This document shows positions 8,913 to 39,180 of a stretch of DNA of 64,000 nt, piece by piece (the first letter of the stretch is position 1; every line of letters starts with the position of its first letter). The notes below the pieces were generated by a model. The model saw only the letters and a list, made by a program, of their open reading frames with translations, did no database searches and was not told where the DNA came from. A program made the position numbers and the translations under genes. The stretch lies in the NCBI GenBank assembly GCA_965198235.1, contig OZ240248.1, positions 4,640,001 to 4,704,000 on the forward strand. The letters are read 5' to 3'. Source of the DNA: Candidatus Poribacteria bacterium (GTDB lineage: Bacteria; Poribacteria; WGA-4E; WGA-3G).

Positions 8913-9122
8913 TGTAATCAACTCCCTTTCGGGGTATATGTTGCCCCATCCAGATCACAGGCTCAGAGAGGTATCAGACTTGGGGAGCATCCGATACATT
9001 ACTTTGGCTACCACGCCAAGAGACCGCGATATATTACTGTAGTCAATGCTTTAACTTGTGAAGTGGACGTTTGGTATACGCTTTGCACAAGTTTCCTCCT
9101 CTTTTAGGAGGAGGTCACTGAC
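8913..9122 (-). ncRNA. omegaRNA (HEARO-like) of IsrB element 1
   Basis: Starts GTCAGTG pairing with CATTGAC; TGCTCCCCAAG, CCTCTCTG, GGATGGGGCAACATA and CCCGAAAGGG are shared with 38972-39180. Confidence 0.85.
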
Positions 9123-9143
9123 GTTGTCAAACATCTAGCACGA

Positions 9144-10658
9144 TTATGCTACCGTTGGTGTCATTGTCCATGCGTCTAAACTGTTTAAAATTGCCGCACC
9201 GCCGTGTGCGAAAATTGAGACACCGACGCTGTCCGCTCGCGTCGGGTAGATGCGCTGGGTTAGACATAACCGGCTATTGACAAAAACTTCCAGCACCGAG
9301 CGGTCTAAGAAGATATGAAGTTTCAGGGATTCTCCTTCAACCAGTTTGAAGGGTGCCTCCTGTGAATTTGTATAGCGTTCTCCGCCGTCTTCGTCTTGTG
9401 GTGTCAGACGCGGATATTTTACTTCGTCATCCAAAGTTGATTTCGTGAGATCGATTTTAAGGAATTCGCCAGATGGCGAATGGACAATGGTGGTTTCCTC
9501 CTCGCCATTTGGGGACTTGCGAACCTTCACACCGAATTCTGTAGCACCTCTCGGATCAATTTCCACCTGTAGTTCAAGGCAATCGCCGTTTACATCTTCA
9601 ATATCGATCTCTGTATCTGCATCGAGTCGGGCTGTTTCTTGGTGGTAATGCTTAGCGCGGAGTTTTTCGAGTTCTGGAACGGGTTTGATACAAAGACTTC
9701 CGTCTTCACTCAACGATAGGATCCGCGGCAATGTCATCACGGAAGCCCAGCCGTATTTCTCCCACGGACGAGCTTCGCGAATCCAACCGAAAAAGATACG
9801 TCGTCCGTTATCGTCAAGGAGCGTTTCAGGTCCAGAGAGTTGTCCACCTTGCCAGTTCATACGTCCATGTATTTCAGGATAGAACTGCTCATCTTCGTAA
9901 CGTCCGAGGTAATAATGTGCCATACCGTAAGGGCGGTGCCCATGCATCAGAAGCATATATCTATCGCCGAGCAGAAAGAAATCGGGACAGGCGCAATCTT
10001 CAACCTCATCCGTCCAACGCCGCGAAGACTTGTAGAATGGACCGAGGTATTCCCACTGAATACAGTCGTCCGAACGGAAAAGACTGGTCGTGTCGCCTTC
10101 GTATCCCGGTCGGCTATTTTTGTTGCCTATAAGCGCATAGTAGGTGCCGTTTTCGTACCAGGCACACGGATCAAAAACGTGGTACTCTTGTGGTTCGTCT
10201 GGTATCGGAATGACCGGGTTTGCAGGCGAGGGTGTCCAGTGAATCAAATCGTCATCTTCGCTGGTTGCGATGCAGGTTCCTTGATTCGGCACGTGATAGA
10301 TGAAGGTTGGAAGCGGTGCGTTCTCAATAGCATCTCCGCTATATATGCCGCGTGGCATTGATCCATCAGTGGCAGGTTTTATTGCCGGTGGATGGTGTAT
10401 CCAATGCACCAGATCGCAGCTGGAGGAGTGGTCGAGCACCGGCAGCCATTCATCTGCGTTTGGATTTGGTATTCGCCCAAGATAAAAGACATGGTATCGC
10501 CCATTGAAAAAAATGGTACAGTTTGCATCATTAAAAAACCCATCGGGAGGGAGTAGGTGATAGCGTGGACGGTGGGGGTCGGCCGAGAGATATTCTCGCA
10601 ATTCACGCGCATCCCCGATGCGTTTATGAAGGTTTTCAATTGTAATTGCTGAATTCAT
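9144..10658 (-). CDS. Glycoside hydrolase family 32-like protein
   Basis: HRPRYH, NDAN, DLVHW, FDP, CPDFF, LPRIL and DRSVLEVF motifs. Confidence 0.85.
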   Translation of the reverse strand: MNSAITIENLHKRIGDARELREYLSADPHRPRYHLLPPDGFFNDANCTIFFNGRYHVFYLGRIPNPNADEWLPVLDHSSSCDLVHWIHHPPAIKPATDGSMPRGIYSGDAIENAPLPTFIYHVPNQGTCIATSEDDDLIHWTPSPANPVIPIPDEPQEYHVFDPCAWYENGTYYALIGNKNSRPGYEGDTTSLFRSDDCIQWEYLGPFYKSSRRWTDEVEDCACPDFFLLGDRYMLLMHGHRPYGMAHYYLGRYEDEQFYPEIHGRMNWQGGQLSGPETLLDDNGRRIFFGWIREARPWEKYGWASVMTLPRILSLSEDGSLCIKPVPELEKLRAKHYHQETARLDADTEIDIEDVNGDCLELQVEIDPRGATEFGVKVRKSPNGEEETTIVHSPSGEFLKIDLTKSTLDDEVKYPRLTPQDEDGGERYTNSQEAPFKLVEGESLKLHIFLDRSVLEVFVNSRLCLTQRIYPTRADSVGVSIFAHGGAAILNSLDAWTMTPTVA

Positions 10659-11309
10659 TTGCCGTGAACTCTCCTCAGTCTTCAGTGCTGCTTATGGTTT
10701 TCCGATTTTTTAATTATGGGAATCTGGTCATCGTTCCACGATGGTTCCTGGTTAATTCTAACCGAATTAGGGATATGTACACAATGAACGCCGACAAACC
10801 AAATCACAGTATAGCATATTAAGAGAGAAGTAACAAGAGAAATCGAGACACGTCAAACCTGTTTGGATATATCTATGAAGACGTTTTTCCTTGAGGTTTT
10901 TTATGCGGTTTGGTATACTGCCCCATAGGTGTCAATTTAGTGCTGTAGAGAATGATGCGTAATTTCAGAGTATTCAGAGTAAAATCGGAAAAATGGGGAT
11001 TTGGAAACGGGCTATAAACCTATGCAATGACTGGGTTTTGGACGATTTTCATTCAAAGGTTCTTGAAGGTTTACTCTGAAATTTTATATCAGAGCCGTCA
11101 GTCACCAGCACGACCGAAAGCAGAGCTAATTCTACAGAAGCGGACAGTTGGAACGAGTTATCGGCATTTGTAGATGAATCGGTGTGGTTTCAATACATTC
11201 TGTTAATATAATTTTACTATATTGTTTTTTCACGGAGACAGTGAATTTTCGCTTCCGAGAACCCACGGACCGCCTGACCCGAAAAAATCCTCCGTGAAGC
11301 CTCCGTGAA

Positions 11310-11498
11310 TTGTGCCTCTTGGAACATCGCAAGCCCAGCTCGCTGCATCTGACGATGCTCGTTTTTGGGACGTTTGGTGCAGAAATCTTGTTGCGGGAAG
11401 ATTTTGAGGCAGATGACTTTGAGTTCGGAACGTTTGCTGTTCAACCTGAAGGAAAACTCGCGACAGCATGCGGACATCTGAAGTTAAATAGTTGGTAA
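11310..11498 (+). pseudogene. Internally deleted remnant of a secreted protein with the Poribacteria C-terminal motif
   Basis: ...FGAEILLREDFEADD joined to FAVQPEGKLATACGHLK; the conserved W is replaced by C. Confidence 0.55.
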
Positions 11499-11516
11499 AC
11501 AGAAAGGAATTCAGTT

Positions 11517-12497
11517 ATGCAAAAATGTGCACTTATCAGCGGTAGAGGCATGGGGTTGATGCACGGTGGAAACTTCCACAGCCATCCAAACGCAGAAGTG
11601 GTCGCTGTGTGCGATATGGACCCGGAACTCCTTGCGAAGGTAGAGGAGCAATTTGGGGTCCCCGGGTATTCAACAATTGAGGATCTTTTAGCAAATTGTG
11701 ATGCAGAACTCGTACTTCTCATTGTCAATGAGACCCGGCGCATCCCACCGTTGCGGCAATTGCTTGAAGCCGGGCGAAATGTATTCACAGAGAAACCCCT
11801 CTGTGGATTGGAAGGACAAGATCGGTTGCGTGAAGAAGACCTCCAAATCGCGGCACCTGCTATCGCAACATGGCGCGACTCTAATCTTAAGTTCGGGATC
11901 GATTTCAACTACCGATTTATGCACCATTTCCGTAAACTGCATGATGATGTTGCCGAAAATCGGTTGGGTGAGATCAGAATGGTACACGCGCGGGCACATT
12001 TCAACTGTTGGTCCCATGTTATCGATCAGATTCTCTGGACGGTAGGGAGACCGGAATGGGTGAGTGTTGTCGGAGACCCGAATGAAGCCGGGGGTTGGGG
12101 ACGTTTAATTCATATCGGTTGGGAGAATGGTGTCATCGGTTCCCTGAGTGGCACAAACCTATGGGGTTACGACGATCATCCGCTTCGAGTTAAGGTCCTT
12201 GGCGATGAATTTTATGCGGAGGCAAAAGGATTGGAAGGCTCTTACTCCCGCAGAAAAGCGAATAGCTCTGAAATAGAGGAAGTCTGGGAAGCCGAGGCTG
12301 ACAATCCAGAGATGCCTGAGTCTTTCAAACGGATGGCTGATGGTGTGATTAAGGCAATGCATGCCGACACATCTTTCCCCGCTGATGGTGAAGCGGCATG
12401 GAACGAGCTGCTGTTTGAGGCGGCGGTCCACAGGTCTGCCTTGCAGAACAATGCCCGCGTATTTCTGAAAGATGTTGAAGAAGAAGCAAGTGCCTAA
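11517..12497 (+). CDS. Gfo/Idh/MocA oxidoreductase
   Basis: GRGMG..H, VFTEKP and FNYRF motifs. Confidence 0.85.
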   Translation: MQKCALISGRGMGLMHGGNFHSHPNAEVVAVCDMDPELLAKVEEQFGVPGYSTIEDLLANCDAELVLLIVNETRRIPPLRQLLEAGRNVFTEKPLCGLEGQDRLREEDLQIAAPAIATWRDSNLKFGIDFNYRFMHHFRKLHDDVAENRLGEIRMVHARAHFNCWSHVIDQILWTVGRPEWVSVVGDPNEAGGWGRLIHIGWENGVIGSLSGTNLWGYDDHPLRVKVLGDEFYAEAKGLEGSYSRRKANSSEIEEVWEAEADNPEMPESFKRMADGVIKAMHADTSFPADGEAAWNELLFEAAVHRSALQNNARVFLKDVEEEASA

Positions 12498-12554
12498 GGA
12501 GACTACAGGCGCGGTTTTCAACCGCGCCTATATCTCAGGAAATGGTATCACGTT

Positions 12555-13607
12555 TTAGGCAGCACTGCCTTTGATAGCGATCTTAATCGCGTCCTTTCCA
12601 TCTAAGTGGTAACTGCCGTGAAGTGCGTCGAAACCTTTGGACACATCCTCTAATGGAAGAATGTGGCTGACAAAACCTTCAAAGAGTGAAGCGTGTTTCT
12701 CAAGCATCGGTATGGCGCGGAGGAAATGCTTCCTTTCAAATCCCCATCCGGCTTCCAATCGGAGGTTTTTGCGCATTAGCATCTGGTTCGGATTGCAATC
12801 AAAAGAGCCAACGTCCACGAAATGCCCGTATACGACGTAAGTTCCACCGTACCTGATGTAGTCCAACCCTTCTGGGATAGCGGCGAGGAAACCGGTGCAT
12901 TCGTAAACAACATCCGCACCATTGCCTTGTGACGTATTTTCTCGGACAATCTGCTTGCGCTCTTCGGGATCTGACACTTCGGCGATATCAATAGTAAGAT
13001 CTGCCCCTAATCTTTTTGCCATCTCAAGCCTTCCGGGGGGCCCGCCGACGACGATAAGTCTTCCGGCACCAGAGACCCTTGCCCAATTAAGCGCAAGCAG
13101 ACCGATGGGACCGGTTCCTTGAATTACAACCGTGTCCCCGAATTCGATTTTGCCGCGTGACACACAGTGTGCGGCACAGGAAGCCGGTTCCGCGAGCACA
13201 GCGACTTCCGGTGATAGATCGGTTTTAAGAAACATATTAGTTGACGGGTTTGACAGATAGATGTACTCGCTGAAGCCACCACGCAGATACGGTGCTTCTT
13301 CCGACGGGGAAAAGCCGAGTCCTCCGCTGGGGGACAGCACTATCCTGTCGCCTTCTTTGACTGGGTTGCCGAGGTAGTCTGTTTCAACCCCCTCGCCTAA
13401 AGTCTCAATCACGCCGACGTTCTCGTGTCCGAGGATAATGTCGTGGTTGATACGCTGAAACTCCCAGTTATGAAGGTCGGTACCGCAAATACCCCCTAAC
13501 TCCTGACGTACGAGTACCGTACCGGGTGCGGGATCAGCTATCGGATACTCTCGAACTTCAAAATTTTTGCCACTCATCACGGTGGCGCGTGCGGTTCTGG
13601 TTCCCAT
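12555..13607 (-). CDS. Zn-dependent alcohol dehydrogenase (MDR)
   Basis: GICGTD, GHE, EP and GTGPIG motifs; the structural Zn loop is absent. Confidence 0.85.
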   Translation of the reverse strand: MGTRTARATVMSGKNFEVREYPIADPAPGTVLVRQELGGICGTDLHNWEFQRINHDIILGHENVGVIETLGEGVETDYLGNPVKEGDRIVLSPSGGLGFSPSEEAPYLRGGFSEYIYLSNPSTNMFLKTDLSPEVAVLAEPASCAAHCVSRGKIEFGDTVVIQGTGPIGLLALNWARVSGAGRLIVVGGPPGRLEMAKRLGADLTIDIAEVSDPEERKQIVRENTSQGNGADVVYECTGFLAAIPEGLDYIRYGGTYVVYGHFVDVGSFDCNPNQMLMRKNLRLEAGWGFERKHFLRAIPMLEKHASLFEGFVSHILPLEDVSKGFDALHGSYHLDGKDAIKIAIKGSAA

Positions 13608-13720
13608 TGTAAAACTCCTTTTAGAAACTCAGCCAAGGTGTGTAAGCACAACAACGGCTGTGCTGGATATATGAAATGTGGCATTTTTGCCAAGACATCC
13701 TCAATAATCCGCTAAGAACG

Positions 13721-14710
13721 TTAAGCAACTTTGACGACTATCTTACCGAGTTTTTCACCTGTGAAAAGCGCGATAAACGCCTTTGGCGCATTCTCTAATC
13801 CCTCTATGATCGTCTCTTCCCACTGTATCTTGCCTTCAGATATCCACTGCCGCATATCACGGTAAAACTCAGAGTTACGCTCCATGAAGTCAGTGACGAT
13901 AAACCCTTGTAACCTGATTCGTTTACCGATAGCAGAACTGAGGTTTGTCGGACCTGGGGTAGGTTCAATATCGTTGTATTGGGAGATCATACCACACAGT
14001 GGGATACGTCCGTGCATATTCATCACTGCGAGCGCGGCTTGTAGGTGTCTGCCTCCCACGTTTTCAAAGTAGATGTCAAGTCCATCGGGACAGTGTTCCC
14101 TGAGTTCAGCTTCCAAGTCATCGACATTTTTATAGTTAAAAGCCGCATCAACGCCAGCTGTCTCCAGTAGCCATGCGACCTTCTGATCGGAACCAGCACT
14201 CGCAACGACTCGGCATCCTTTGATTTTTGCGATCTGGCATACGATTGAACCTACCGCACCTGCTGCTGCGGAGACAAAAACTGTTTCTCCTGCTTTGGGC
14301 TGACCGATCTCCAGAAATCCGAAGTAGGCGGTACGTCCGGGCATACCGACAGCACCTAAAAACGACTGGAGCGGTGCAATCGTTAGATCAACAGCGGTCA
14401 CGCTTTCTGCCGGTGCGATGTAATGATCCCGCCATCCCTGCATACCTGTCACATAATCCCCAGCTTGAAACTGGTCGCTGTTCGATGCCACAATCCGACC
14501 GGCGCATCTACCTTCTAAGGGTTTACCGAGTTCAGCGGACCGCATACCGCCGCGCATATACGGGTCTACTGACGTGTAAAGGTTTTCGACTAATACCTCC
14601 CCTGCTGCGGGTGCAGGGAGCGTCGCCTCAACGATTTCAAAATCACTTTCTTTGGGCATACCGACGATTCGGTTTTTAAGGCGAATTTGTCGGCTTATAG
14701 TGTTCGGCAT
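13721..14710 (-). CDS. NADP-dependent alkenal/prostaglandin reductase-like oxidoreductase (CurA-like)
   Basis: SVDPYMR, GMPGRTAY, AAAGAVG and CGMISQYN motifs. Confidence 0.9.
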   Translation of the reverse strand: MPNTISRQIRLKNRIVGMPKESDFEIVEATLPAPAAGEVLVENLYTSVDPYMRGGMRSAELGKPLEGRCAGRIVASNSDQFQAGDYVTGMQGWRDHYIAPAESVTAVDLTIAPLQSFLGAVGMPGRTAYFGFLEIGQPKAGETVFVSAAAGAVGSIVCQIAKIKGCRVVASAGSDQKVAWLLETAGVDAAFNYKNVDDLEAELREHCPDGLDIYFENVGGRHLQAALAVMNMHGRIPLCGMISQYNDIEPTPGPTNLSSAIGKRIRLQGFIVTDFMERNSEFYRDMRQWISEGKIQWEETIIEGLENAPKAFIALFTGEKLGKIVVKVA

Positions 14711-14830
14711 TTTCTTCTCCTATCGGCTTACGATTCGATTGATTTAATTGGTATTGATGCAATGATAGCATATCTGAAAAAAAAGTCAAGATCAGGGATC
14801 TTTGGAATGCTCTGATGCTTTGAAATCCGT

Positions 14831-14859
14831 TTGACATTTGTTTGTAAATATGGTATAAT
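14831..14859 (+). promoter_or_regulatory. Consensus sigma70 promoter
   Basis: TTGACA-N17-TATAAT, with TG upstream of the -10. Confidence 0.75.
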
Positions 14860-15071
14860 TAGTAGGGTGTAAGGATGAACTTGCACAAGTACATTCTCTC
14901 TTCATATCCTTGAATCAAGTCAAACTCAACGGCGCGAAGCGCATATTACACTGATCGCGCTTACCTATCCAATTATCTAACTGAATATCTATAGTTGTTT
15001 ATGGCGGACCCCTCTGCTAAAGTTTCTGATTGAAAGCTTATATTGTCTGCTGCTCATTTTAGGAGGAAAGA

Positions 15072-15645
15072 ATGAACGCTCCCTCTAATGAATTTCTTAG
15101 AACAGATTTCGGACACGAGGTATATGATACGTGGTATCTTGAGCAGGGAAGATACAATTTTGAGACAAGAGATTGAATTTATCTTGGGCGACTATAATGA
15201 AATGAGTTTTGAGGAGAGGTTTTCTGTTATTTTCTTCGAGGGCTCATTTTTTTATCAATCCAAGGAGGGTTTAGTGTCGCTCTTAAACCGAATCCATAAA
15301 GCACTTACGCCTAATGGTAGGGTTTACTTTGTGCACCCAAATCATTCAATACGGAAAAAGCAATTTCCAGTGGTTAATTGGAGTGAAATTAAGAAAAACG
15401 TGTTCGTCCTGCAGAACGGAGAATATGACGAAAGTGAAGATATGGAAAGATGCACTTGGCTTAAGATAGATTTAGAGACACAGAAACATTACAAGTGCGA
15501 CTATTCTGTTATGCACCTCCCCCCGGACGAACTCAAGAACTGTCTTGTGGCGGCGGGATTTTCGGATTTCCATTTCTACAAGAAGCGTAGACTGGAAGAC
15601 TTCCATCTGGGGAATGATGGGTTTTCTGTGGTGGCTGTAAAGTGA
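15072..15645 (+). pseudogene. Class I SAM methyltransferase remnant (frameshift, motif I missing)
   Basis: AGGAGG and ATG at 15072 give MNAPSNEF...ETRD*. A second frame gives QEIEFILGDYNEMSFEERF...ALTPNGR...LVAAGF. No GxGxG motif. Confidence 0.6.
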
Positions 15646-15784
15646 GTGTATGCCTGTCCCCATAAATACTTTTATCCACTTGGGAATATTGCATTTACAT
15701 TTGTCCAAAAGAGTGCTAAAATAGGGAATAGGTCATCAGGTACAGGAGCCCTGCCCATTAGAATTTTGGAGGTTATTTGCAGTT

Positions 15785-16624: not shown

Positions 16625-16827
16625 CCAAATTCCGATATAGCAAGATTTAATTTGAAAGAGATTGTATCTCATGATACACTAATATAACAGAAACTTTATT
16701 GTGTGGCACAATGATACAGAGGAAAGCCAGATTATTCTTGCTGCCTCAGTGACCAATACCTATCGGGCGAGACTCATTTTTGAATAATAGCCAGTGGATA
16801 ATTCGCTGACTAAGGAGGTAATAAAAG

Positions 16828-17625: not shown

Positions 17626-17830
17626 CCTACTCCCAAATCTAAAGATTGCGTTGGTTGGCGATTTTCCGATGTTTGCGGGTAAACCCCGGGCAACCGAGCA
17701 GGGAGTTCTTATTTAGCGGTAGGCGGATTTTTGAAATCCGTCTCTATATTGGTGGTGACAGGACTGAGTGTGGTTCAATACTGAGCCTCCTCGGTCTTGT
17801 CGAAAGTATCACTAAACGGGAGGAGTTTTT

Positions 17831-18589: not shown

Positions 18590-18624
18590 AGCAGGAGGCA
18601 CATGCCGTCTGCCATAACGTAGCT

Positions 18625-31454: not shown

Positions 31455-31486
31455 AACTTGCTGTAGGAAATAACAAGGAGGTAAGT

Positions 31487-33106
31487 ATGGCTTTTCCATC
31501 ATACGGTACAACACACCGATCCACTGTAACGGGTACACGCGGAATGGCGACAAGTGCGCATCCGCTTGCAAGCCTTGCTGGTGCACGCATGTTGCTCGCT
31601 GGCGGTAATGCGTTTGATGCAGCAGTCGCAGTGGCTTCGACACTCAATGTCGTTGAGCCTTATATGTCGGGTATCGCTGGCAACGGGTATATGTTGCTCT
31701 ATAGTGCGAAGGAAAAAACACACCGCGTGATAGACTATTTGGGCACCGCACCTTACGCCGCGACGCTGGATGTCTATCCAACACTCGAAAGCCAGCAGGT
31801 TGGCATTCGTGCGGGTATGGTCCCCGGTGGATGCGGTGGCTGGCTGGCACTCTTAGAGCACTATGGGAGTATGGATCACGCAGATGTCTTTACTCCGGCG
31901 ATTGAATTGGCAGAAAATGGATACGCCGTCACCGTCAAGAATGCGGAATTCATCGCAGGCGCGCTGCCTTATTTCTCTAAAAGGGCTGAAGAGGTTATCG
32001 CTTCGCGAGGGAGAACACCACACCCCGGCGAAGTTTTAGTGCAAAAGGATTTAGCCAACACATTCCGTCAAGTCGCTGAAGGCGGTGCGGAGACATTTTA
32101 TCGCGGCGACATCGCCAAAGAAATTGTCCGTTTTTCCGAAGAAACCGATGGACTGATTACCGAAAAGGATTTAGCTGACTTTGAGGTGGAATGGCAGGAA
32201 CCTATCTCCGTTACCTACAAAGATTATGAAGTCTACTGTCCACCGCCGCCGTGTTCAGGCTTTCAGTACTTAGAGACACTGAATATTTTGGAAAACGATG
32301 CCCTCGGTGAACTCGGACACAATACCCCGGAATACCTGCATCTGCTGATTGAAGCAATTAAGTTAGCGAGTACGGATAGAGCCGAGTATGCTCCACGCCC
32401 GAACCCGCCGATTGAACGCTTGTTATCTAAAGACTACGCACGTGCACAACGCGAACGCATTGGCGAACAAGCCGCAGTCAGCGGTGGTGAACGTTGGTCA
32501 AAGGACAAACTCCCCGGTGAAATTATCGCTGATGACTGGACAACCGAATGCACAACCCATTTTGACACCGCTGATGCAGAGGGCAATATTGTCGCCGTGA
32601 CACAGAGCCTTGGACAACCTTTTGGCTCAGGGGTGATTCTCGGTTCAACGGGGATGTTTCTCAACAATTTCATGAACTGGTTCGACAGAATTCCAGAGAG
32701 CCCGAACGCCGTTGGACCGCATAAACGGATAGAGATGTGCATGTCGCCGTGCCAAGTTTGGAAGGATGGAAATCCGTTCGCTGCGATTGGCACACCGGGC
32801 AGCCACGGCATCCTTCAAACGACACTACAGATGGTGTTGAATCTGATTGAACACGGGATGAATGTTCAGGCGGCGATTGAAGCACCGCGCGTTCGCGTGG
32901 TAAATCCGGGAACGCATGTCAGTATGGAGGGACGTATTCCTGCTGCTGTCCGTGCAGCGTTAGAGGCGCGCGGACATGAGGTAGAGGTGTTGCCTGACTG
33001 GACAGCCGCCGTGGGTGGAGGTCAAGGTATTGCCTTTGATTCCGAAGAAGGCAGTTTCATGGGGGGTGCTGATCCGCGGCGCGATGGGTATGCAATAGGT
33101 GTGTAA
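31487..33106 (+). CDS. ggt: Gamma-glutamyltransferase family protein
   Basis: GGNAFDAAVA, TTH, GTPG and ADPRRDG motifs; AAGGAGG RBS before ATG 31487. Confidence 0.9.
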   Translation: MAFPSYGTTHRSTVTGTRGMATSAHPLASLAGARMLLAGGNAFDAAVAVASTLNVVEPYMSGIAGNGYMLLYSAKEKTHRVIDYLGTAPYAATLDVYPTLESQQVGIRAGMVPGGCGGWLALLEHYGSMDHADVFTPAIELAENGYAVTVKNAEFIAGALPYFSKRAEEVIASRGRTPHPGEVLVQKDLANTFRQVAEGGAETFYRGDIAKEIVRFSEETDGLITEKDLADFEVEWQEPISVTYKDYEVYCPPPPCSGFQYLETLNILENDALGELGHNTPEYLHLLIEAIKLASTDRAEYAPRPNPPIERLLSKDYARAQRERIGEQAAVSGGERWSKDKLPGEIIADDWTTECTTHFDTADAEGNIVAVTQSLGQPFGSGVILGSTGMFLNNFMNWFDRIPESPNAVGPHKRIEMCMSPCQVWKDGNPFAAIGTPGSHGILQTTLQMVLNLIEHGMNVQAAIEAPRVRVVNPGTHVSMEGRIPAAVRAALEARGHEVEVLPDWTAAVGGGQGIAFDSEEGSFMGGADPRRDGYAIGV

Positions 33107-33175
33107 CCTGTAGCAATGCTACTTTCGTTTGGGAAATGTAAATTATTATGGATCTGCGCAAAAGTGAGGGTTTAA

Positions 33176-33625
33176 GTGGCTCATCCGAAACACATTGTTG
33201 CTGCCTCTGGATTGATAAGCCATCCCGACGGTAAAATTTTGGTCATACGGGGTCCGCGCCGTGGATGGGAATTTCCGGGTGGTCAGGTCGAAGAAGGTGA
33301 AAACCTTATTGAGGCGTTACAACGCGAAGTTCAAGAAGAGACCGGAGTCACTGCATCAATTGGACCGTTGGCTGGTGTCTACTCAAACATCAAGTCTCCT
33401 ACTAAAGTGGCGTTTGGTTTCTTAGGAAATTACGTCTGTGGTGAATTAAGTACGAGCGATGAAAGTTTAGAAACCGAGTGGGTTGCACGTGGTTCAGTTT
33501 TGCGACGTATATCACATCCTGTTATTTATGACAGAATGAAAGATATGCTCGATTTTTCGGGACGTGTCATTTATCGCGTTTACACCAATGACCCTTATCA
33601 GATTTGTGAGCAGTGTTTCCTGTGA
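33176..33625 (+). CDS. NUDIX hydrolase
   Basis: Nudix box GGQVEEGENLIEALQREVQEETG. Confidence 0.9.
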   Translation: MAHPKHIVAASGLISHPDGKILVIRGPRRGWEFPGGQVEEGENLIEALQREVQEETGVTASIGPLAGVYSNIKSPTKVAFGFLGNYVCGELSTSDESLETEWVARGSVLRRISHPVIYDRMKDMLDFSGRVIYRVYTNDPYQICEQCFL

Positions 33626-33712
33626 AATCAAGGCAGATTGGCTACTGAAATGTCCTTAACAAAATAATTTTTTGAATTTCATACCCATGATAAAGTTCTT
33701 TAAGGAGGAATT

Positions 33713-34762
33713 GTGAAAAGTTTTAATACCTTGAACAAATCCGTTTTTTTGGCATTGGGACTACTTGTAATCTGTGGTTGTGACGCGATTCAGGACGTAA
33801 TCCTTTCTGACCCATCAACTGAAACAGAGGTTACACCACTTCGCGTAACCATGATATACCCAAGCGATTGCATTGGCTCCGCGGCTTACTGTGATGCCTT
33901 CCATATTGGTGTAAAGGCTGCAGCGGAAGAACTTGGAATTGCGCTGACTGAAGTAAGCGGTATGGAAAACGATCCCGTAGCCACAGAGATGCTCCTAAGA
34001 GATGCAGCACAAAATTCAGAACTTGTTTTGACAGCAGGTTATCAAATGGGAGATGTGCTTGCTCGTGTAGCACCAGAATTTCCTGATGTCAAATTTGCGA
34101 TCTTTGATGTTGTGCTTGATATTCCAAACGTGGCTTCTGTGAACTATAAATCCAACGAAGGATCGTTTCTGGTCGGGGCAATTGCGGCTTTAAAATCGGA
34201 AAGTAACAAAATCGGCTATATCGGAGGTGCGGATGTCCCTCTATTACAAGAATTTGAAGCAGGCTATGTTGCTGGGGTTCACGCAGTCAATCCAGACGCG
34301 GAAGTTACTGTAGAATATATTAGCAAAGATGCAACAGGTTTCGGTCAACCTGAAAAAGCAAAAGAATTGGCTTTAGCACAATATGAACGCGGAATAGATG
34401 TGATTTACGTTGCTGCTGGCGGATCCGGCCAAGGAGTGCTCGAAGCCGCTCAAGAACAACAAAAGTTCATCATTTGGGTTGATTCCAATGGTAACCATCT
34501 TGCCCCTGGAATTGTCTTGACGAGTATGACAAAAGAGATTCCGGCTTCTGTGCAGCGCATCATCCGAGAAACCGCTGGGGGCAATTTTATGGCAGGTGTC
34601 CGATACTTCGGACTCGAAGATGGCGGTGTCAGTTATGCCATTGATGAACATAACCAATCCTTGCTTGCAGACAACCTCATAATGACCGTTGAATCGTTGA
34701 AGGCAAAGATCATTGCTGGCGAGATTGTCGTTCCCAACACAGTTTCGCTTCCGCGTGAATAG
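33713..34762 (+). CDS. BMP-family ABC substrate-binding lipoprotein
   Basis: Lipobox-like ICGC; EGSFLVGAIAA, IGYIGG and AAGGSG motifs. Confidence 0.88.
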   Translation: MKSFNTLNKSVFLALGLLVICGCDAIQDVILSDPSTETEVTPLRVTMIYPSDCIGSAAYCDAFHIGVKAAAEELGIALTEVSGMENDPVATEMLLRDAAQNSELVLTAGYQMGDVLARVAPEFPDVKFAIFDVVLDIPNVASVNYKSNEGSFLVGAIAALKSESNKIGYIGGADVPLLQEFEAGYVAGVHAVNPDAEVTVEYISKDATGFGQPEKAKELALAQYERGIDVIYVAAGGSGQGVLEAAQEQQKFIIWVDSNGNHLAPGIVLTSMTKEIPASVQRIIRETAGGNFMAGVRYFGLEDGGVSYAIDEHNQSLLADNLIMTVESLKAKIIAGEIVVPNTVSLPRE

Positions 34763-34812
34763 TCCTTGTGGTGACATTCTGTCTTTGTATTCCTACAAAA
34801 TTGGAGAATTTT

Positions 34813-35193
34813 ATGCTTAATCAATACCCGTACCCGGAGTCCGAAGGTAGACGGGGTATCGTGATTGGAATTTTGGTCAGCTTGATTACTTGTGGTATCT
34901 ATGGACTTTACTGGCAATACAAGCAGATGGCAACACTTAATGCTTGGTTGAAGCGGGATGAGTACTCTTTTTGGCTCTGGTTTTTTCTTTCGATTATTAC
35001 TTTCGGCATCTTCGGTATCTATTATGAGTACAAGATGGCAAATGGTATCAATAAAGTTCAGGCTGATAATGATTTGGTATTTGATTCAAACTTGCCTATC
35101 ATCTGTGTTGTGTTAGCAATTGTCGGTATTGGTGTTGCTTCACTCGCTATTCAACAGCACCAGATTAACAGACTCTACGGACGAACTCCTTAA
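34813..35193 (+). CDS. DUF4234 membrane protein
   Basis: SLITCGIYGLYW and SIITFGIFGIYY motifs. Confidence 0.75.
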   Translation: MLNQYPYPESEGRRGIVIGILVSLITCGIYGLYWQYKQMATLNAWLKRDEYSFWLWFFLSIITFGIFGIYYEYKMANGINKVQADNDLVFDSNLPIICVVLAIVGIGVASLAIQQHQINRLYGRTP

Positions 35194-35567
35194 TGTTTAA
35201 CCATGTATTTCTCGCCCGTCTCTTTCTTATCGGATTGGGTGTAGTAGGGGTTTACACTACAATTTCAGAAATACCACCAGCAGAGGTTTCATTGATTCCG
35301 TGTATACTTCATTTAGTAACCGATATTCCATGTCCTGGGTGTGGAATGACGCGGGCGTGCCTTGCTTTAACACACGGACATTTCGCAGACGCTTGGCGTT
35401 ACCATCCGTTTTCTTATTTAATTATTGGATTGGCTATCGGGTCGGCATTCTTTCCGATGTGGTTAAAAAACGCTTGGACCCGTTATTCACCGGTCACTCA
35501 AAATACGATTGCCATCGGTGGAATTGCGCTATGTCTCTCCATTTGGGTTTATAAATTGTGGGCATAA
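35193..35567 (+). CDS. DUF2752 membrane protein
   Basis: PCPGCGMTRA...GHF..AW.YHP motif. Confidence 0.85.
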   Translation: MFNHVFLARLFLIGLGVVGVYTTISEIPPAEVSLIPCILHLVTDIPCPGCGMTRACLALTHGHFADAWRYHPFSYLIIGLAIGSAFFPMWLKNAWTRYSPVTQNTIAIGGIALCLSIWVYKLWA

Positions 35568-35698
35568 AAGCGAAGTCCCTCCACTACCAGTCACAAGCGG
35601 TTCTGTAGTAGCAGATGAATCTCTTCAGTTCCGCAAATGTACATAGCGACGAAGGTCTATGGAAAACTGTGGTAGATCGAATTATAAAGAGCGAAGTC

Positions 35699-36640
35699 TT
35701 AGTGCCCCCTCAGGATAGTCCCCTTCGCACCGACAATCCACCCCGCATTTTTCTGGAGATAGATATCCTGCAAGTTGTGTTGAGCCGGGGTAGGATAACG
35801 GTTCCATGTGTTGCCACTATCGGTTGTGTGAAGGATTAACCCTTTTTCGCCGACTGCCCACCCGCGTTTTTCGTCACGAAATGCCACGTCCCGTAGGTTT
35901 AGATTTACAGGCGTTTTTTGCCGAATCCACGTTATTCCACCATCAGTGGTATGGAGAATCAAGCCGTTTGTCCCGACAATCCATCCATACGTCAGATTTG
36001 CGAAATGGACAGCGAATAAAGGCTGCTCGGCGTTACTTCTCTGTTGAACCCACCGTTTTCCGCCATCTTGGGTATGCAGGACTTCACCCTCTTCCCCAAC
36101 AATCCATCCGTGTGCTGGATCGACAAAATACACACCCCATAAATGTTTATCTGACAGACCTCTTTGGCTCTCCCAACGACCCCCACCATTCTCTGTTTTG
36201 AGCACTGTCCCTTTTCCGCCAACTGCCCAGCCTTCTGTCGTACTAACGAAATGCAGGTCCAAGATTCCTGGTGATGTCTTGCTCTCACCGCGTGCTTGGT
36301 GTTGCAAGTTCCATGAAGCACCACCGCTGCCCGTATAGTGCACCTGTCCAATGCTGACGGTCCAGCCGTTGTTTGGGGTCGCGAAATTAACTTGCGTCAG
36401 TGTGTCTTTCGAGATCAAAGTCGCTTTCCAAGAGGCTCCACTGTCAACCGTAGATAGTACTGTTCCACCCGTACCGACTGCCCATCCGCGTTTCGTATCT
36501 ATAAAATGGATGCCGTAAAGATGTTCACCCGTCCCGCTTTCAAGTTGTCGCCACTCAAATTGCACCGTATCTTGGGAGCAACCGAGGCACACAAGACTTC
36601 CACACAAAATCATGAGCGCGATGTAGTTTTTATTCTGCAT
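35699..36640 (-). CDS. YCF48/BNR-repeat beta-propeller lipoprotein
   Basis: LGC lipobox; repeated GW.VG..G.ILHTTDGG..W. Confidence 0.85.
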   Translation of the reverse strand: MQNKNYIALMILCGSLVCLGCSQDTVQFEWRQLESGTGEHLYGIHFIDTKRGWAVGTGGTVLSTVDSGASWKATLISKDTLTQVNFATPNNGWTVSIGQVHYTGSGGASWNLQHQARGESKTSPGILDLHFVSTTEGWAVGGKGTVLKTENGGGRWESQRGLSDKHLWGVYFVDPAHGWIVGEEGEVLHTQDGGKRWVQQRSNAEQPLFAVHFANLTYGWIVGTNGLILHTTDGGITWIRQKTPVNLNLRDVAFRDEKRGWAVGEKGLILHTTDSGNTWNRYPTPAQHNLQDIYLQKNAGWIVGAKGTILRGH

Positions 36641-36923
36641 TTCAGGTCCCCTTTTCCGAACAAAATTTTATTGCATCTGTTTTTTGAATCGTGGTAGACT
36701 ATACTATTATAAGGAATCTGTGGCGAGTTGTCAAGCTCTTACAGAAGTACCACTTTTAGACTTGAACCCATGATTTGACAAAAAGTAAAAAATATATAAT
36801 GACTCTGGCAGTTATGGAGGTTCGACTTAGCACCCGCGACACCTTGTCGCAGTACCACACTATTCTCTGTGACAAACGAATCAAGACTGGCATAACTGGC
36901 AAACAACTAAAGGAAATACGAAA

Positions 36924-37118
36924 ATGAATCAAGACAAATTTGAAGAAATGGTGGTGTCCACATTAGAGAGCGTACGCGCCGACCTTTCCAATATCAAGTC
37001 CGACATCTCATGGGTCAAAGGGAAGCTAGAGGGCCGAGCGGAGACACGTCATGTTATCCTAACAGCGATTTCTATTATCGTTGCTATCTGCGCTGTTGTC
37101 ATCGCTATTTTGAAATAA
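36924..37118 (+). CDS. Small coiled-coil protein with a C-terminal TM helix
   Basis: AAGGA RBS; heptad region followed by a hydrophobic tail. Confidence 0.6.
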   Translation: MNQDKFEEMVVSTLESVRADLSNIKSDISWVKGKLEGRAETRHVILTAISIIVAICAVVIAILK

Positions 37119-37161
37119 GAGCGAAGGCGGCAAGTGGAGATCCGAAAGACCTTAGCATATT

Positions 37162-38067
37162 ATGTACATCATCGGAATTGATGGCGGCGGAACGAAAACA
37201 ATTGGTATTCTGGCAACAGGAACGGGGCAACACCTTGCACAAGTGCAATCGGGACCCGCAAACTACCACGTCGTTGGCGAGGCAAGAACGCAGGCAGTTT
37301 TAGAAGACATCGTCGGGGAGCTCTATGAAAAAGCAGGCGTTCCATCAGGAAATTCTGTCCGGTTCTGCTTGGGTATGGCTGGTTTGGGACGCTCCGCAGA
37401 CCGAGAAGTGATTGGACGAATTTGTGATGAACTCGGCATCTGCCAAAATCGGGTCTTGACCCACGATGCACATATCGCTCTCGTTGGTGGCACGGAGAAA
37501 CAGGAAGGTGTAATTGTCATCTCTGGAACCGGTGCGATTGTCTACGGCATCAATGCCGATGGCAGAGAAGCACGCGCGAGCGGATGGGGATACCTACTTG
37601 GAGACGAAGGGAGCGGTTACGATATTGCTATAAAAGGACTCCAAGCCGTTACTCGTGCTGCTGATGGCAGAGGCGATCGAACCGAATTGACAGATCGAAT
37701 CCTCAATAGACTTGAACTCAACGAACCACCTGAACTGATTCGCTGGGCGCACGCCGCGAGTCGAGATACGATTGCCCAGTTGACAGAGGTAGTGTTTGAT
37801 ACTGCCCGAACAACAGACGCGGTCGCAGGATGCATTGTTGATGAGGCGACTGATGAACTCGCTTGTGCCGCAGTCAGCGTAATTGAACAGTTGAAATTCA
37901 CAGAGCCGTTTGATATTGTTCTCAGTGGTGGCAATCTCATCCATCAAACGATGTTCGCCGACAAACTCCGCCACCGGTTTGCAAGGATTCAACCAGAGGC
38001 ATCGGTGCAACTTCCAAAACATGAGCCCGCGTATGGTGCTGTGTTGTTAGCACAAGCGAGTTTGTAG
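37162..38067 (+). CDS. BadF/BadG-type N-acetylglucosamine/MurNAc kinase
   Basis: GIDGGGTKT, ISGTG and GWGYLLGDEGSG motifs; adjacent to murQ. Confidence 0.88.
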   Translation: MYIIGIDGGGTKTIGILATGTGQHLAQVQSGPANYHVVGEARTQAVLEDIVGELYEKAGVPSGNSVRFCLGMAGLGRSADREVIGRICDELGICQNRVLTHDAHIALVGGTEKQEGVIVISGTGAIVYGINADGREARASGWGYLLGDEGSGYDIAIKGLQAVTRAADGRGDRTELTDRILNRLELNEPPELIRWAHAASRDTIAQLTEVVFDTARTTDAVAGCIVDEATDELACAAVSVIEQLKFTEPFDIVLSGGNLIHQTMFADKLRHRFARIQPEASVQLPKHEPAYGAVLLAQASL

Positions 38068-38073
38068 ACGGAA

Positions 38074-38979
38074 ATGATCACCAGCAAAGGATGCATGCAG
38101 TCCACAACGGAACAGCAAAATCTGACTTCTGTTGACATCGATCTGAAGTCAACATCAGAAATCGTCCGGATTTTTCACGAAGAAGATCGGAAAGCGATTA
38201 AGGCAGTAGAAGCAGAATCCGAAGCGATTGCACACGCTATTGAATTATGCGTTGCTGCATTTCGCGCCGGTGGCAGACTGTTTTATGTCGGCGCGGGTAC
38301 GAGTGGTAGACTTGGGGTGTTGGATGCCTCCGAATGTCCACCGACTTTTAGTACGTCCCCAGAGATGGTCCAAGGGATAATTGCTGGTGGGGACGTTGCC
38401 TTACGTCGCTCGGTGGAAGGTGAAGAGGATAAGCTTGAAAGTGGTGCGCTCGCTGTCCGGGAGCGACAACTCACATCACAAGATGTGCTCGTCGGCATCG
38501 CAAGCAGTGGACGGACGCCTTATGTTATAGGGGCTTTGAGGGAGGCGCGTGCTATTGGTGCGACAACAATATTTCTCTGCTGCGTTCCACCTCCTGAGCA
38601 ATTAAAAGGATGGGTGACGCATTTCATCACACCCATTGTCGGACCGGAGATTATCACCGGCTCAACCCGATTGAAAGCGGGAACAGCCACAAAGTTGGTT
38701 CTGAACATGTTGACGACTGCTTCTATGATCAAACTGGGTAAGGTCTACAATAATCTGATGGTAGACGTACACGCCTCTAACACGAAACTGGTCGCGCGGA
38801 GCATCCGAATTGTCCAAGCCGTCACTGGGGTTGATGCTGTGGTGGCTGAGGAAGCGTTAGCACGGGCAGGCGGTCGTGCTAAACTCGCTATTGTAATGCT
38901 CGCGAAAGGACTGAATCCGACGGACGCGAATACACTATTAGATGAACATGAGGGATTTCTAAGGCAAATTCTTCAGTAA
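38074..38979 (+). CDS. murQ: N-acetylmuramic acid 6-phosphate etherase
   Basis: GAGTSGRLGVLDASECPPTF, GSTRLKAGTATK and NLMVD motifs. Confidence 0.95.
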   Translation: MITSKGCMQSTTEQQNLTSVDIDLKSTSEIVRIFHEEDRKAIKAVEAESEAIAHAIELCVAAFRAGGRLFYVGAGTSGRLGVLDASECPPTFSTSPEMVQGIIAGGDVALRRSVEGEEDKLESGALAVRERQLTSQDVLVGIASSGRTPYVIGALREARAIGATTIFLCCVPPPEQLKGWVTHFITPIVGPEIITGSTRLKAGTATKLVLNMLTTASMIKLGKVYNNLMVDVHASNTKLVARSIRIVQAVTGVDAVVAEEALARAGGRAKLAIVMLAKGLNPTDANTLLDEHEGFLRQILQ

Positions 38980-39180
38980 CTCCACGCTAAAGCGTGGAGA
39001 TTGTAGAATATCCCGAGCCAACGGGGGACCCTGCAACGCGAGATGCTGAATACACGCACATATCGCGGACCTTGTGGTGGCACACAACAAGACGGTACTA
39101 GGTGCTCCCCAAGCCTGTATCCTCTCTGGTTCCGTGATGTGGATGGGGCAACATACAACCCGAAAGGGGATTTACTAACT
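38972..39180 (+). ncRNA. omegaRNA (HEARO-like) of IsrB element 2
   Basis: TTCAGTA pairs with TGCTGAA; CTCCACGC-TAAA-GCGTGGAG end hairpin; conserved blocks shared with 8913-9122. Confidence 0.85.

What the first reader, a model, noticed from the sequence alone, without database searches (positions are those of the whole stretch)
8913..39180. The two omegaRNAs show compensatory changes that define the scaffold
Seen: GTCAGTG/CATTGAC versus TTCAGTA/TGCTGAA; ATCGCGG/CTGTGAT versus ATCGCGG/CCGTGAT; GTATCGGA/TCTGATAC versus GTACTAGG/CCTGTAT; invariant TGCTCCCCA/TGGGGCA and CCC-GAAA-GGG. The TnpA guide co-varies with the end as well (CAAG/TGAC versus CAAT/TGAA), so a single base change is matched in both the RNA stem and the DNA recognition code.
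Basis: seen in the sequence. Interest (0 to 1): 0.7.

Follow-up and report, generated by a model that had tools for sequence, protein, structure and literature searches.

The report
Two IsrB guide RNAs, covariation confirmed

Summary
Every quoted motif pair is present, upstream of two IsrB genes: A on the minus strand (7887-8912) and B on the plus strand (39181-40245). The proteins are 71% identical.

On 75 homologous upstream regions, 84.7% of cells in a 60-pair structure form pairs, against 34-44% for slid controls. 47 of 60 pairs change on both sides. Two pseudoknots are also supported. The layout matches, as far as the text describes it, the published "group A" IsrB omegaRNA (PMC9581776).

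The TnpA claim also holds:
- The first scaffold base is complementary both to its RNA partner (75 of 75) and to the base after the first hairpin (74 of 75, one G/T).
- This fits the IS608 guide/cleavage-site rule (PMC3201880).
- It traces to only about one or two evolutionary events.

Empty sites in relatives fix the element ends. The other transposon end shows the same DNA code against the flanking ATGA/ATGG/ATAA motif. No TnpA gene lies in these elements, so they are non-autonomous.

Verdict: new members of a known kind, from Poribacteria-like sponge symbionts. Rfam's HEARO model misses them. Interest is modest.

The parts
7858..9122 (-). Element A: non-autonomous IS200/IS605-type element (omegaRNA scaffold + isrB + far-end hairpin), 1265 bp
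   Evidence: The 5' limit is column 1 of the 75-sequence alignment. The 3' limit is by analogy with copies E and F, whose empty sites in relatives show that the terminal TTG belongs to the element. A's own empty site could not be recovered.
8913..9122 (-). omegaRNA scaffold A (S1, SL1, SL2, nexus stems, SL4, SL5, SL7, two pseudoknots), ending at the isrB start codon
   Evidence: Own covariance model R1 scores 202.4 bits, E 6.6e-60. Rfam HEARO scores only 17.6 bits against a gathering score of 83.
9123..9142 (-). Presumed guide segment of omegaRNA A: flank just outside the element, 3' of a GH32-like ORF (9144-10658) on the same strand
   Evidence: Inferred. The published rule is that the guide lies 5' of the scaffold, outside the transposon end (passages of 10.1101/2023.03.14.532601). 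The length of 20 nt is taken from DtIsrB and was not measured here.
7887..8912 (-). isrB A, 341 aa, open
   Evidence: Translation. Pfam RRXRR 105.3 bits. 71% identical to B.
9095..9114 (.). SL1 of omegaRNA A, which is also the right-end hairpin of the transposon. It is flanked on the plus strand by the DNA guide CAAG (9088-9091) and the end motif TGAC (9119-9122).
   Evidence: Sequence. Covariation of columns 1/37, 3/40 and 4/39. IS608 rule.
7854..7897 (.). Far (left) end of element A on the plus strand: flanking motif TCAT (7854-7857; ATGA in isrB sense), 20-nt spacer, DNA guide GAAA (7874-7877), weakened 5-bp hairpin (7878-7897)
   Evidence: Sequence. nhmmer hit to the left-end model, E 8.1e-9. 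Guide/flank classes.
38972..40268 (+). Element B. The 3' limit is uncertain (40265-40268) because its far-end hairpin is lost.
   Evidence: The 5' junction is directly after ...CAAATTC of murQ. 14 relatives carry an unoccupied site there, as does one contig of run X4. The 3' end compared with copy D lacks the hairpin arms.
38972..39180 (+). omegaRNA scaffold B. Its first bases TTCAGTAA supply the stop codon of murQ.
   Evidence: R1 scores 186.2 bits, E 5e-55. Helix coordinates. No Rfam hit even at E<=10. murQ is TIGR00274 at 400 bits.
38952..38971 (+). Presumed guide segment of omegaRNA B (the last codons of murQ)
   Evidence: Inferred as for A. The upstream gene is on the same strand, as in the orientation bias reported for IscB elements.
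39181..40245 (+). isrB B, 354 aa, open
   Evidence: Translation. Pfam RRXRR 104.1 bits. 8DMB IsrB at E 4.1e-36.
1662..2067 (+). Third, gene-less small element of the same family: right-end-like start (GTGATAGA + hairpin + CTTC) and a left-end hairpin followed by ...TATG|ATAA
   Evidence: R1 partial hit at 1662-1725, 15.2 bits, E 0.0033. nhmmer left-end hit at 2020-2070, E 1.2e-12. The 5' limit was not verified.

Best explanation
The two stretches are the scaffolds of two IsrB omegaRNAs. Each lies at the right end of a non-autonomous IS200/IS605-type element, and isrB is antisense to the strand the transposase would act on.

How it most likely works (inferred):
1. Transcription enters from the upstream host gene. 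That gene is murQ for B and a GH32-like gene for A.
2. The last ~20 flanking bases become the guide. The next ~210 nt fold into S1, SL1, SL2, nexus stems, SL4, SL5 and SL7 (which holds the Shine-Dalgarno sequence), plus an adaptor pseudoknot (GCCA with UGGC) and a nexus pseudoknot (CCCCA with UGGGG).
3. If a TnpA supplied in trans excises the element, the IsrB-omegaRNA complex would nick the rejoined donor site. That site is the guide match followed by the flanking motif ATGA/ATGG/ATAA. The nick would favour copying the element back.

The same DNA also carries the transposase's own code.
- SL1 is the right-end hairpin.
- The 4 nt before it on the active strand (CAAG, CAAT, AAAG) pair with the last 4 nt of the element (TGAC, TGAA, TTAC), as in IS608.
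- So the first scaffold base is constrained twice: by the closing pair of S1 in the RNA and by guide/end pairing in single-stranded DNA.

What is shown: the structure by covariation, the element limits, the DNA code and the IsrB family placement. What is inferred: transcription, guide use, nicking, and mobilisation by a particular TnpA.
For: Protein:
- Pfam RRXRR at 104-105 bits and no HNH hit at E<=0.1.
- Best solved relative is IsrB 8DMB, E 4.1e-36, or 1.8e-42 with a profile.
- D60, E153, H221 and D224 are invariant in 5 of 5 own copies.

RNA:
- On 75 sequences RNAalifold finds 32 pairs, 28 of them with compensatory change.
- My 60-pair structure has 84.7% of cells paired against 33.9-44.2% when slid.
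- Its covariation score is 0.403 against 0.047-0.081, and 0 of 500 shuffles reach it.
- Adaptor pseudoknot: 94% of cells paired. Pair 55:128 is GC 41, AU 21, GU 6, other 7.
- Nexus pseudoknot: pair 159:201 is AU 49, UA 19, other 7.
- The layout agrees with the text description of group A IsrB omegaRNAs and of SL7 holding the Shine-Dalgarno sequence.

Element limits:
- F: 11 of 11 fetched relatives read ...AAAGA[T/C]|ATGA... with no TTG.
- E: one relative gives the same junction.
- B: 14 of 14 fetched relatives are unoccupied.

DNA code:
- Right end: columns 1/37, 3/40 and 4/39.
- Left end: both rule positions complementary in 33 of 38 unique parsed ends (strict parser). The lenient parser gives 58 of 72, with a shuffle mean of 28.9 and 0 of 2000 shuffles reaching 58.

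Genome context:
- 16 model hits, 6 of them next to isrB.
- 6 Y1 transposase genes elsewhere in the genome.
Against: - Rfam's HEARO model does not reach its gathering score (17.6 against 83 bits for A, nothing for B).
- Transcription is not shown. The stretch is in contigs of four sponge metatranscriptome runs of one study. Contigs give no strand or ends, and DNA carry-over is possible.
- Helix P4 is paired in only 40.9% of cells and the outer part of P7 in under 40%, at least partly from alignment register.
- No TnpA lies within 1.5 kb of isrB in the 91 loci scanned. blastn-short found no significant similarity between element ends and the six TnpA loci.
- B has lost its far-end hairpin and sits beside ATTT, not a canonical motif. 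It is probably immobile.
- A's far-end hairpin is reduced to 5 bp, and 3 nt separate its right-end guide from the hairpin.
- The two right-end switches need only 2 changes each on the protein tree.
- Copies E, F and L076 break the 3/40 pair, and L069 has G/T at 1/37.
Confidence: 0.88

Rival explanations
1. The link between column 1 and column 37 (and column 3 with column 40) is shared ancestry or module exchange, not selection for guide/end pairing by a transposase. The T-type and GTAA-type 5' modules arose once each and simply travel as blocks.
For: On the IsrB tree each switch needs only 2 changes. The misplaced rows (L052/L053, L037) carry 5' modules identical to the main clade of their type. 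Columns 10 and 31 of SL1 track the same split.
Against: - The changed positions are exactly the ones that pair in IS608 (guide 1 with end -3, guide 4 with end -1), and the unpaired -2 is A throughout.
- A gene-less element in the window shows a third state, G with C, at 3/40.
- The other transposon end shows the same rule, with guide classes ending TC, TT and CC against ATGA, ATAA and ATGG.
Confidence: 0.2
2. The conserved upstream region is only a transposon end plus a structured 5' leader that controls isrB translation. It is not a guide RNA.
For: SL1 doubles as the transposase hairpin, and DtIsrB does not need it for nicking. SL7 sequesters the Shine-Dalgarno sequence. Rfam HEARO is not reached.
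Against: About 170 nt beyond the transposase signals covary as RNA, including two pseudoknots whose loops are nearly invariant. The architecture follows published IsrB omegaRNAs. Four full scaffolds in the genome persist without any isrB ORF, so they cannot be leaders of one.
Confidence: 0.04
3. Copies A and B are decaying relics. Their RNAs keep an ancestral fold, but neither element nor nuclease is active in this genome any more.
For: B lacks the far-end hairpin and A's is weakened. Copy D has two stops. The copies are 63-73% identical rather than near-identical, so there is no sign of recent bursts. No cognate TnpA is in the elements.
Against: Both ORFs are open with the invariant acidic and His residues. 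Compensatory rather than random change between A and B (13 double changes) implies selection on the RNA after they diverged. Occupied and unoccupied alleles of B's site coexist in sponge samples.
Confidence: 0.3

Closest known systems
IsrB omegaRNA as solved for Desulfovirgula thermocuniculi IsrB and modelled for five orthologues (Hirano et al. 2022, PMC9581776; passages read)
   Same: - The scaffold sits directly 5' of isrB and ends at the start codon.
- It has S1, SL1 and SL2 as a guide-adaptor region, nexus stems, and two pseudoknots.
- SL7 carries the Shine-Dalgarno sequence.
- The order of pseudoknot partners (SL2 with the first inner hairpin, the second inner hairpin with the strand before SL7) is the one described for group A.
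- The flanking motifs ATGA/ATGG fit the reported NTGA, NTG and NTGG TAMs.
   Different: - The scaffold is about 210 nt, against 262 nt in DtIsrB, and no SL3, SL6 or SL8 was found.
- The proteins are distant (E 4e-36, aligned over about 280 of 354 residues).
- An ATAA class of flank is not among the TAMs in the passages I read.
- I saw no figures or supplements, so the match is to the text description only.
HEARO RNA, Rfam RF02033 (IscB-associated omegaRNA)
   Same: Same genomic position and the same role are assumed. The weak full-length alignment of copy A (model 1-211) places the outer stem, the first hairpin and the GAUGCUCCCCAAGUC loop correctly.
   Different: The score is far below gathering (17.6 against 83 bits). 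Copy B is not found at E<=10. The associated protein lacks HNH.
IS608 / IS200-IS605 TnpA recognition code (He et al. 2011, PMC3201880; passages read)
   Same: - Subterminal hairpins at both ends.
- A 4-nt guide 5' of each hairpin.
- The end motif is 8 nt (10 in IS608) 3' of the right hairpin. The flank motif is about 20 nt (19 in IS608) 5' of the left hairpin.
- Guide 1 pairs with -3 and guide 2 with -4. Guide 4 with -1 is my reading. The -2 base is an unpaired A.
- Insertion leaves no duplication.
   Different: - Different motifs: TCAT/CCAT/TTAT flank and TGAC/TGAA/TTAC end.
- The cargo is isrB, antisense to the active strand.
- The element carries no tnpA.
ISGst IscB/TnpB elements and their gene-less derivatives (PATEs) in Geobacillus stearothermophilus (Meers et al., preprint 10.1101/2023.03.14.532601; passages read)
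   Same: - The scaffold derives from the transposon right end and the guide lies outside it.
- The upstream gene is in the same orientation.
- Transposase and nuclease share the flanking motif.
- DNA guides covary with TAM and TEM.
- Gene-less small relatives sit in the same genome.
   Different: The nuclease here is IsrB rather than IscB, and the phylum is different. Nothing here is tested experimentally.

Membership tests
IsrB (OMEGA nickase) | N-terminal PLMP/RRXRR region | tested here: met
   PF14239 at 104.1 and 105.3 bits, cut-off 25.
IsrB (OMEGA nickase) | Split RuvC with its acidic and His residues | tested here: met
   D60, E153, H221 and D224 are invariant in 5 of 5 copies. They align to VDPG, TED and H..D of the 8DMB chain. 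The assignment of catalytic roles is recalled, not tested.
IsrB (OMEGA nickase) | No HNH domain (this separates it from IscB) | tested here: met
   No HNH family at E<=0.1 in Pfam. Length is 341-354 aa. NCBIfam guided_IscB matches only residues 5-164 at 84.5 bits, below its cut-off of 175.
IsrB (OMEGA nickase) | RNA-guided nicking of the non-target strand next to a TAM | not testable with these tools
   Needs biochemistry.
IsrB omegaRNA | Conserved structured RNA directly 5' of isrB on the same strand | tested here: met
IsrB omegaRNA | S1/SL1/SL2 region, nexus stems, adaptor and nexus pseudoknots | tested here: met
   Covariation counts, compared with text passages only.
IsrB omegaRNA | Guide encoded outside the transposon end | tested here: met
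   Homology among copies starts at column 1. Empty sites for E and F place the junction there. Use of the flank as a guide is inferred.
Rfam HEARO (RF02033) | Score at or above the curated gathering score | tested here: not met
   0 hits at gathering. 17.6 against 83 bits for A. None for B.
IS200/IS605 element | Subterminal hairpins at both ends, similar within an element | tested here: met
   In D the two hairpins are CTCCACGC..GCGTGGAG and CTCCATGC..GCATGGAG. E and F are likewise similar. B and C have lost the far one.
IS200/IS605 element | Insertion next to a specific tetranucleotide without target duplication | tested here: met
   F against 11 unoccupied relatives and E against 1. Flank 4-mers are ATGA, ATAA and ATGG. 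B and D show loss of 7-19 native bases at the other junction.
IS200/IS605 element | DNA guide complementary to the cleavage-site motif (IS608 rule) | tested here: met
   Right end. Left end 33 of 38 and 58 of 72.
IS200/IS605 element | Y1 transposase TnpA encoded in the element | tested here: not met
   No tblastn hit in the 91 isrB loci with 1.5-kb flanks. Six tnpA genes lie elsewhere in the genome. The elements are therefore non-autonomous.

The most novel reading that the evidence does not exclude
In this family one recognition problem is solved three times in linked sequence, and the three solutions switch together.

- The flanking motif (ATGA, ATGG or ATAA) matches the left-end DNA guide that a TnpA would use.
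- It also tracks two residues three apart in the IsrB C-terminal domain. KR..Q or KR..T goes with ATGA. KR..R goes with ATGG. KQ..L or KQ..M goes with ATAA.
- This mirrors the published effect of changing DtIsrB Gln326 to Arg.
- At the other end, the first omegaRNA base is held both by an RNA pair and by a DNA guide pair.

These would be natural TAM-switch variants of IsrB with their transposase code co-switched. Swapping the gene's 3' end plus the left end as one module would make such switching possible.
Probability: 0.5. Interest if true: 0.5.

Novelty: new member of a known kind. Interest (0 to 1): 0.3.

Why it matters
- The result gives a covariation-backed secondary structure and a working covariance model for a compact (about 210 nt) IsrB omegaRNA lineage. 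The curated Rfam model misses this lineage. It is abundant in Poribacteria-like sponge symbionts: 334 relatives in one scan and 16 model hits in this genome.
- One sequence serves two readers: the RNA fold used by the nuclease and the single-strand DNA code used by the transposase. The natural variants mark which bases can be changed together.
- If the flank-motif classes really correspond to different IsrB TAMs, the family offers ready-made specificity variants of a small nickase.
- None of this changes the accepted picture of OMEGA systems.

Tried and rejected
1. I first read the conserved TTGAT after the elements as the target. This was rejected. Empty sites for F (11 relatives) and E show that TTG is the element's own end and that the flank starts at ATGA. 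B's unoccupied relatives happen to read TTGAT at that place, which misled me. B's far end is damaged.

2. The empty site for A could not be recovered. The intergenic sequence in 11 fetched relatives diverges before the junction, so it is uninformative.

3. blastn-short of element ends against the six TnpA loci gave only chance-level matches, E 0.008 or worse. A profile of the left end later did hit the left ends of the two tnpA-tnpB elements at 4381977 and 4793273.

4. Mapping the C-terminal residues onto DtIsrB Arg323 and Gln326 by sequence failed. Alignments stop at chain residue 464 or 434. The equivalence rests on spacing and chemistry only.

5. Expression was not established. Four sponge metatranscriptome runs of one study hold the stretch, but only as contigs, so transcription, strand and ends are unknown.

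6. MAFFT on six sequences misaligned copy A's first 30 columns. That alignment was replaced by the 75-sequence one.

7. Earlier notes of this scan held nothing on this genome.

8. A literature search for Poribacteria together with IsrB, IscB, TnpB or IS605 listed ten papers, none containing the word Poribacteria. I did not look beyond those ten.

Full report
**What is there**

The finding's span brackets two homologous loci. Copy A is on the minus strand: an ORF at 7887-8912 (341 aa) preceded by about 210 conserved non-coding bases at 8913-9122. Copy B is on the plus strand: conserved bases at 38972-39180, then an ORF at 39181-40245 (354 aa).

- The proteins are 71% identical, 237 of 336 residues.
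- Both match Pfam RRXRR (PF14239) at 104-105 bits and no HNH family at E<=0.1.
- Their best solved relative is the IsrB of entry 8DMB, E 4.1e-36, or 1.8e-42 with a five-sequence profile.
- NCBIfam's guided_IscB model matches only the N-terminal half, below its cut-off.

They are therefore IsrB-type proteins, that is, IscB without HNH. The upstream regions are where an omegaRNA is expected.

**The observation**

One pair of arms in B (GTACTAGG/CCTGTAT) needs a one-base bulge. Over 64 pairs, A and B compare as follows:

| Class | Pairs |
|---|---|
| Identical | 32 |
| Changed on one side, still paired | 6 |
| Changed on both sides, still paired | 13 |
| Unpaired in one copy | 12 |
| Gap | 1 |

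The window's genome holds six near-full-length isrB copies at 63-73% identity, one of them with two stops. A scan of one genome per species found 334 relatives and returned the best 80 loci. All are titled Candidatus or uncultured Poribacteria.

I aligned 75 upstream regions with MAFFT: the 6 own copies plus 69 of the 80 loci. Eleven loci were dropped.
- L029, L031, L038, L054, L066, L071, L079 and L082 were dropped for lack of a clear start codon or end, or for odd length.
- L064, L065 and L084 were dropped as exact duplicates.

RNAalifold on this alignment predicts 32 pairs, 28 with compensatory change. A fuller structure that I wrote from the six own copies has 60 pairs including the nexus pseudoknot. 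Its counts are below.

| Measure | Structure | Partners slid by 1-3 columns |
|---|---|---|
| Cells paired | 84.7% | 33.9-44.2% |
| Pairs changed on both sides | 47 of 60 | 19-28 |
| Covariation score | 0.403 | 0.047-0.081 |

None of 500 shuffles reached any of the five measures.

Weak spots are the small hairpin P4 (40.9% paired, a register problem between subfamilies) and the two outer pairs of P7.

94% of its cells are paired, and pair 55:128 is GC 41, AU 21, GU 6, other 7.

**Comparison with what is known**

Rfam's HEARO model does not reach its gathering score anywhere in the window. At a loose threshold it aligns copy A end to end at 17.6 bits against 83. It does not find B.

Passages of Hirano et al. 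2022 (PMC9581776) describe IsrB omegaRNAs as follows.
- S1, SL1 and SL2 form a guide-adaptor region.
- Nexus stems carry inner hairpins.
- There is an adaptor and a nexus pseudoknot.
- SL7 holds the Shine-Dalgarno sequence.
- In "group A", SL2 pairs with the first inner hairpin, and the second inner hairpin pairs with the strand before SL7.

That is the arrangement found here, in a shorter scaffold (about 210 nt against 262). The same paper reports that SL1 is dispensable for nicking and probably serves transposition. I read text passages only. Figures and supplements, which may list this RNA type, were not available.

**The transposon**

Homology among copies begins exactly at column 1, [G/T]TCA. 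Downstream of isrB there is a second hairpin resembling SL1 of the same element. It is followed about 20 nt later by ...TTG and a flank beginning AT[GA][AG].

Empty sites settle the limits.
- **Copy F:** 11 of 11 fetched relatives read ...AAAGA[T/C]|ATGAAAAAAACACGG, with nothing between.
- **Copy E:** it interrupts a PIN-domain gene, and one relative restores the frame ...CCAGACA|A[C/T]GATATT.

So the element runs from column 1 to the terminal TTG. It duplicates nothing and lies 5' of ATGA on the isrB strand, which is 3' of TCAT on the other strand. This is the IS200/IS605 pattern with isrB antisense to the active strand. Passages of Meers et al. describe the same for IscB: the scaffold derives from the right end and the guide lies outside it.

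Applied to the window:
- A spans 7858-9122.
- B starts at 38972 directly after ...CAAATTC of murQ (TIGR00274, 400 bits). Its first bases supply murQ's stop codon.
- B has lost its far hairpin.
- B lacks 7-10 native bases that are present in 14 unoccupied relatives and in one contig of a sponge sample.
- Copy D likewise lacks 19 native bases at that junction. I have no explanation for these losses.

**The TnpA-guide claim**

He et al. 2011 (PMC3201880, passages) state the IS608 arrangement.
- A 4-nt guide lies 5' of each hairpin and pairs with the cleavage-site tetranucleotide.
- C-3 pairs with guide base 1 and T-4 with guide base 2.
- A-2 is unpaired.

Pairing of -1 with guide base 4 is my reading of TTAC/AAAG and TCAA/GAAT.

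On the strand antisense to isrB, the right end here reads guide, hairpin (SL1), then 8 nt ending in the end motif. The variants are CAAG...TGAC (A and most copies), CAAT...TGAA (B and 17 others) and AAAG...TTAC (5 loci). In alignment columns:

| Column pair | Counts |
|---|---|
| 1 / 37 | G/C 56, T/A 18, G/T 1 |
| 3 / 40 | C/G 67, A/T 5, not complementary 3 (copies E, F, L076) |
| 4 / 39 | A/T 75 |

Column 1 is also the closing pair of S1 in the RNA, with column 92: G:C 57, U:A 18, none unpaired.

The caveat is depth of evidence. On a quick maximum-likelihood tree of the 75 proteins, each switch needs only two changes. The rows that force the second change carry 5' modules identical to the main clade of their type, which suggests module exchange rather than repeated mutation.

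Support from elsewhere:
- A gene-less relative in the window (about 1662-2067) has G with C at 3/40.
- Ten further model hits in the genome were read by eye. All eight in which the three positions (1, 37, 92) are present keep them matched.

**The other end obeys the same rule**

A profile of the left end found 89 sites in the 80 loci and the own genome.
- A strict parser resolved 42 sites, 38 of them unique. The four bases after the hairpin against the flank were TTTC/ATGA 14, TTTT/ATAA 9, TCTC/ATGA 5, TCCC/ATGG 5, TTCC/ATGA 3, and other 2. Both rule positions were complementary in 33 of 38.
- A lenient parser resolved 73 sites, 72 of them unique, with both positions complementary in 58 of 72. 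The shuffle mean was 28.9 and 0 of 2000 shuffles reached 58.

These counts are not corrected for relatedness. Some misses are register errors of the parser.

**Who moves them**

No Y1 transposase lies within 1.5 kb of isrB in the 91 loci scanned. The genome has six such genes.
- Three sit in tnpA-tnpB elements.
- The left ends of two of these (near 4381977 and 4793273) are hits of the same left-end profile, in the TTTT/ATAA class.
- Their right end reads GAAC, hairpin...TCAG, which also fits the rule.

That transposase is a candidate helper. This is inference only.

**Function**

By analogy with the published systems, the flank 5' of column 1 would be the guide. After excision, the rejoined site (guide match followed by ATGA, ATGG or ATAA) would be nicked by IsrB.
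- The motifs agree with the reported IsrB TAMs NTGA, NTG and NTGG.
- Both A and B sit behind a gene on the same strand, as needed for read-through transcription.
- The stretch is present in contigs of four sponge metatranscriptome runs of one study, but that does not show transcription.

**Seen in passing**

In 43 loci with both a parsed flank and a protein, two C-terminal residues three apart follow the flank motif.
- KR..Q (21) or KR..T (10) with ATGA.
- KR..R with ATGG (4 of 4, plus one ATGA exception).
- KQ..L or KQ..M with ATAA (4 of 5).

Hirano et al. report that Arg323 reads the third and Gln326 the fourth TAM base, and that Q326R admits G. I could not align these residues to the solved chain, so the equivalence is inferred. 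The two regions are adjacent on the DNA, so linkage may carry the association.

**Verdict**

The observation and both parts of the interpretation stand. The object is an ordinary, well-preserved example of a known system in a phylum where I found no listed paper describing it: the ten papers listed by the one search did not contain the word Poribacteria. It is a new member of a known kind.

Noticed in passing
window 1662-2067 (+): A gene-less small element of the same family. Its start resembles a right end (GTGATAGA, hairpin, CTTC), and it has a clean left-end hairpin followed by ...TATG|ATAA. Its 3/40 positions are G and C, a third complementary state.
   Followed up: partly
own genome C1: 2377106, 4757286, 4416412, 1070729 (outside the window): Four full omegaRNA scaffolds (119-185 bits) have no isrB ORF. 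One is an internal deletion that keeps the gene's last ~60 nt. The other three carry an insertion in SL5 and share a conserved ~170-nt non-coding stretch before the left-end hairpin.
   Followed up: partly
own genome C1: 1866635, 3157754, 3046388, 1012452 (outside the window): Small elements of about 260 bp keep only the first ~97 nt of the scaffold (S1, SL1, SL2). This is joined to an unrelated conserved ~90-nt segment and a left-end hairpin. It is not explained why the whole S1 domain is kept, rather than just the transposase signals.
   Followed up: no
loci L018-L097, IsrB C-terminal region (alignment column 320): Residues in a K[RQ]xx[QTRL] motif track the flanking motif ATGA, ATGG or ATAA. 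This parallels the published Arg323 and Gln326 TAM contacts of DtIsrB. Sister proteins L052 (R..R, ATGG) and L053 (Q..L, ATAA) differ here.
   Followed up: partly
window 38972 junction; L003 (copy D) junction: Copies B and D, both T-type, lack 7-10 and 19 native bases respectively next to their right end, compared with unoccupied relatives. Copies E and F, both G-type, are inserted cleanly. The cause is unknown.
   Followed up: partly
own genome copies C, D, F, S1, S3, S4, p1, p2, p5: Many copies end immediately before an ATG that looks like the start codon of the next gene on the same strand. For D and F, alignment with relatives confirms this. The flank motif ATG[AG] thus often coincides with a start codon.
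   Followed up: no
own genome C1: 4381488 and 4792784: Two near-identical tnpA-tnpB (IS605-type) elements. My reading of the sequence is a TTAT flank, an AAAA left guide 19 nt before the hairpin, and GAAC...TCAG at the right end. They are candidate helpers for the isrB elements.
   Followed up: partly
L005 (copy E), own genome C1 about 1584100-1585400: Copy E interrupts a PIN-domain (VapC-like) gene. The remnant also carries TGA where a relative has TGG.
   Followed up: no
window 38972-40271, run X4: A contig from a sponge RNA library joins the two flanks of element B with 7 other letters between. An unoccupied allele therefore coexists with the occupied one in that study's samples.
   Followed up: no
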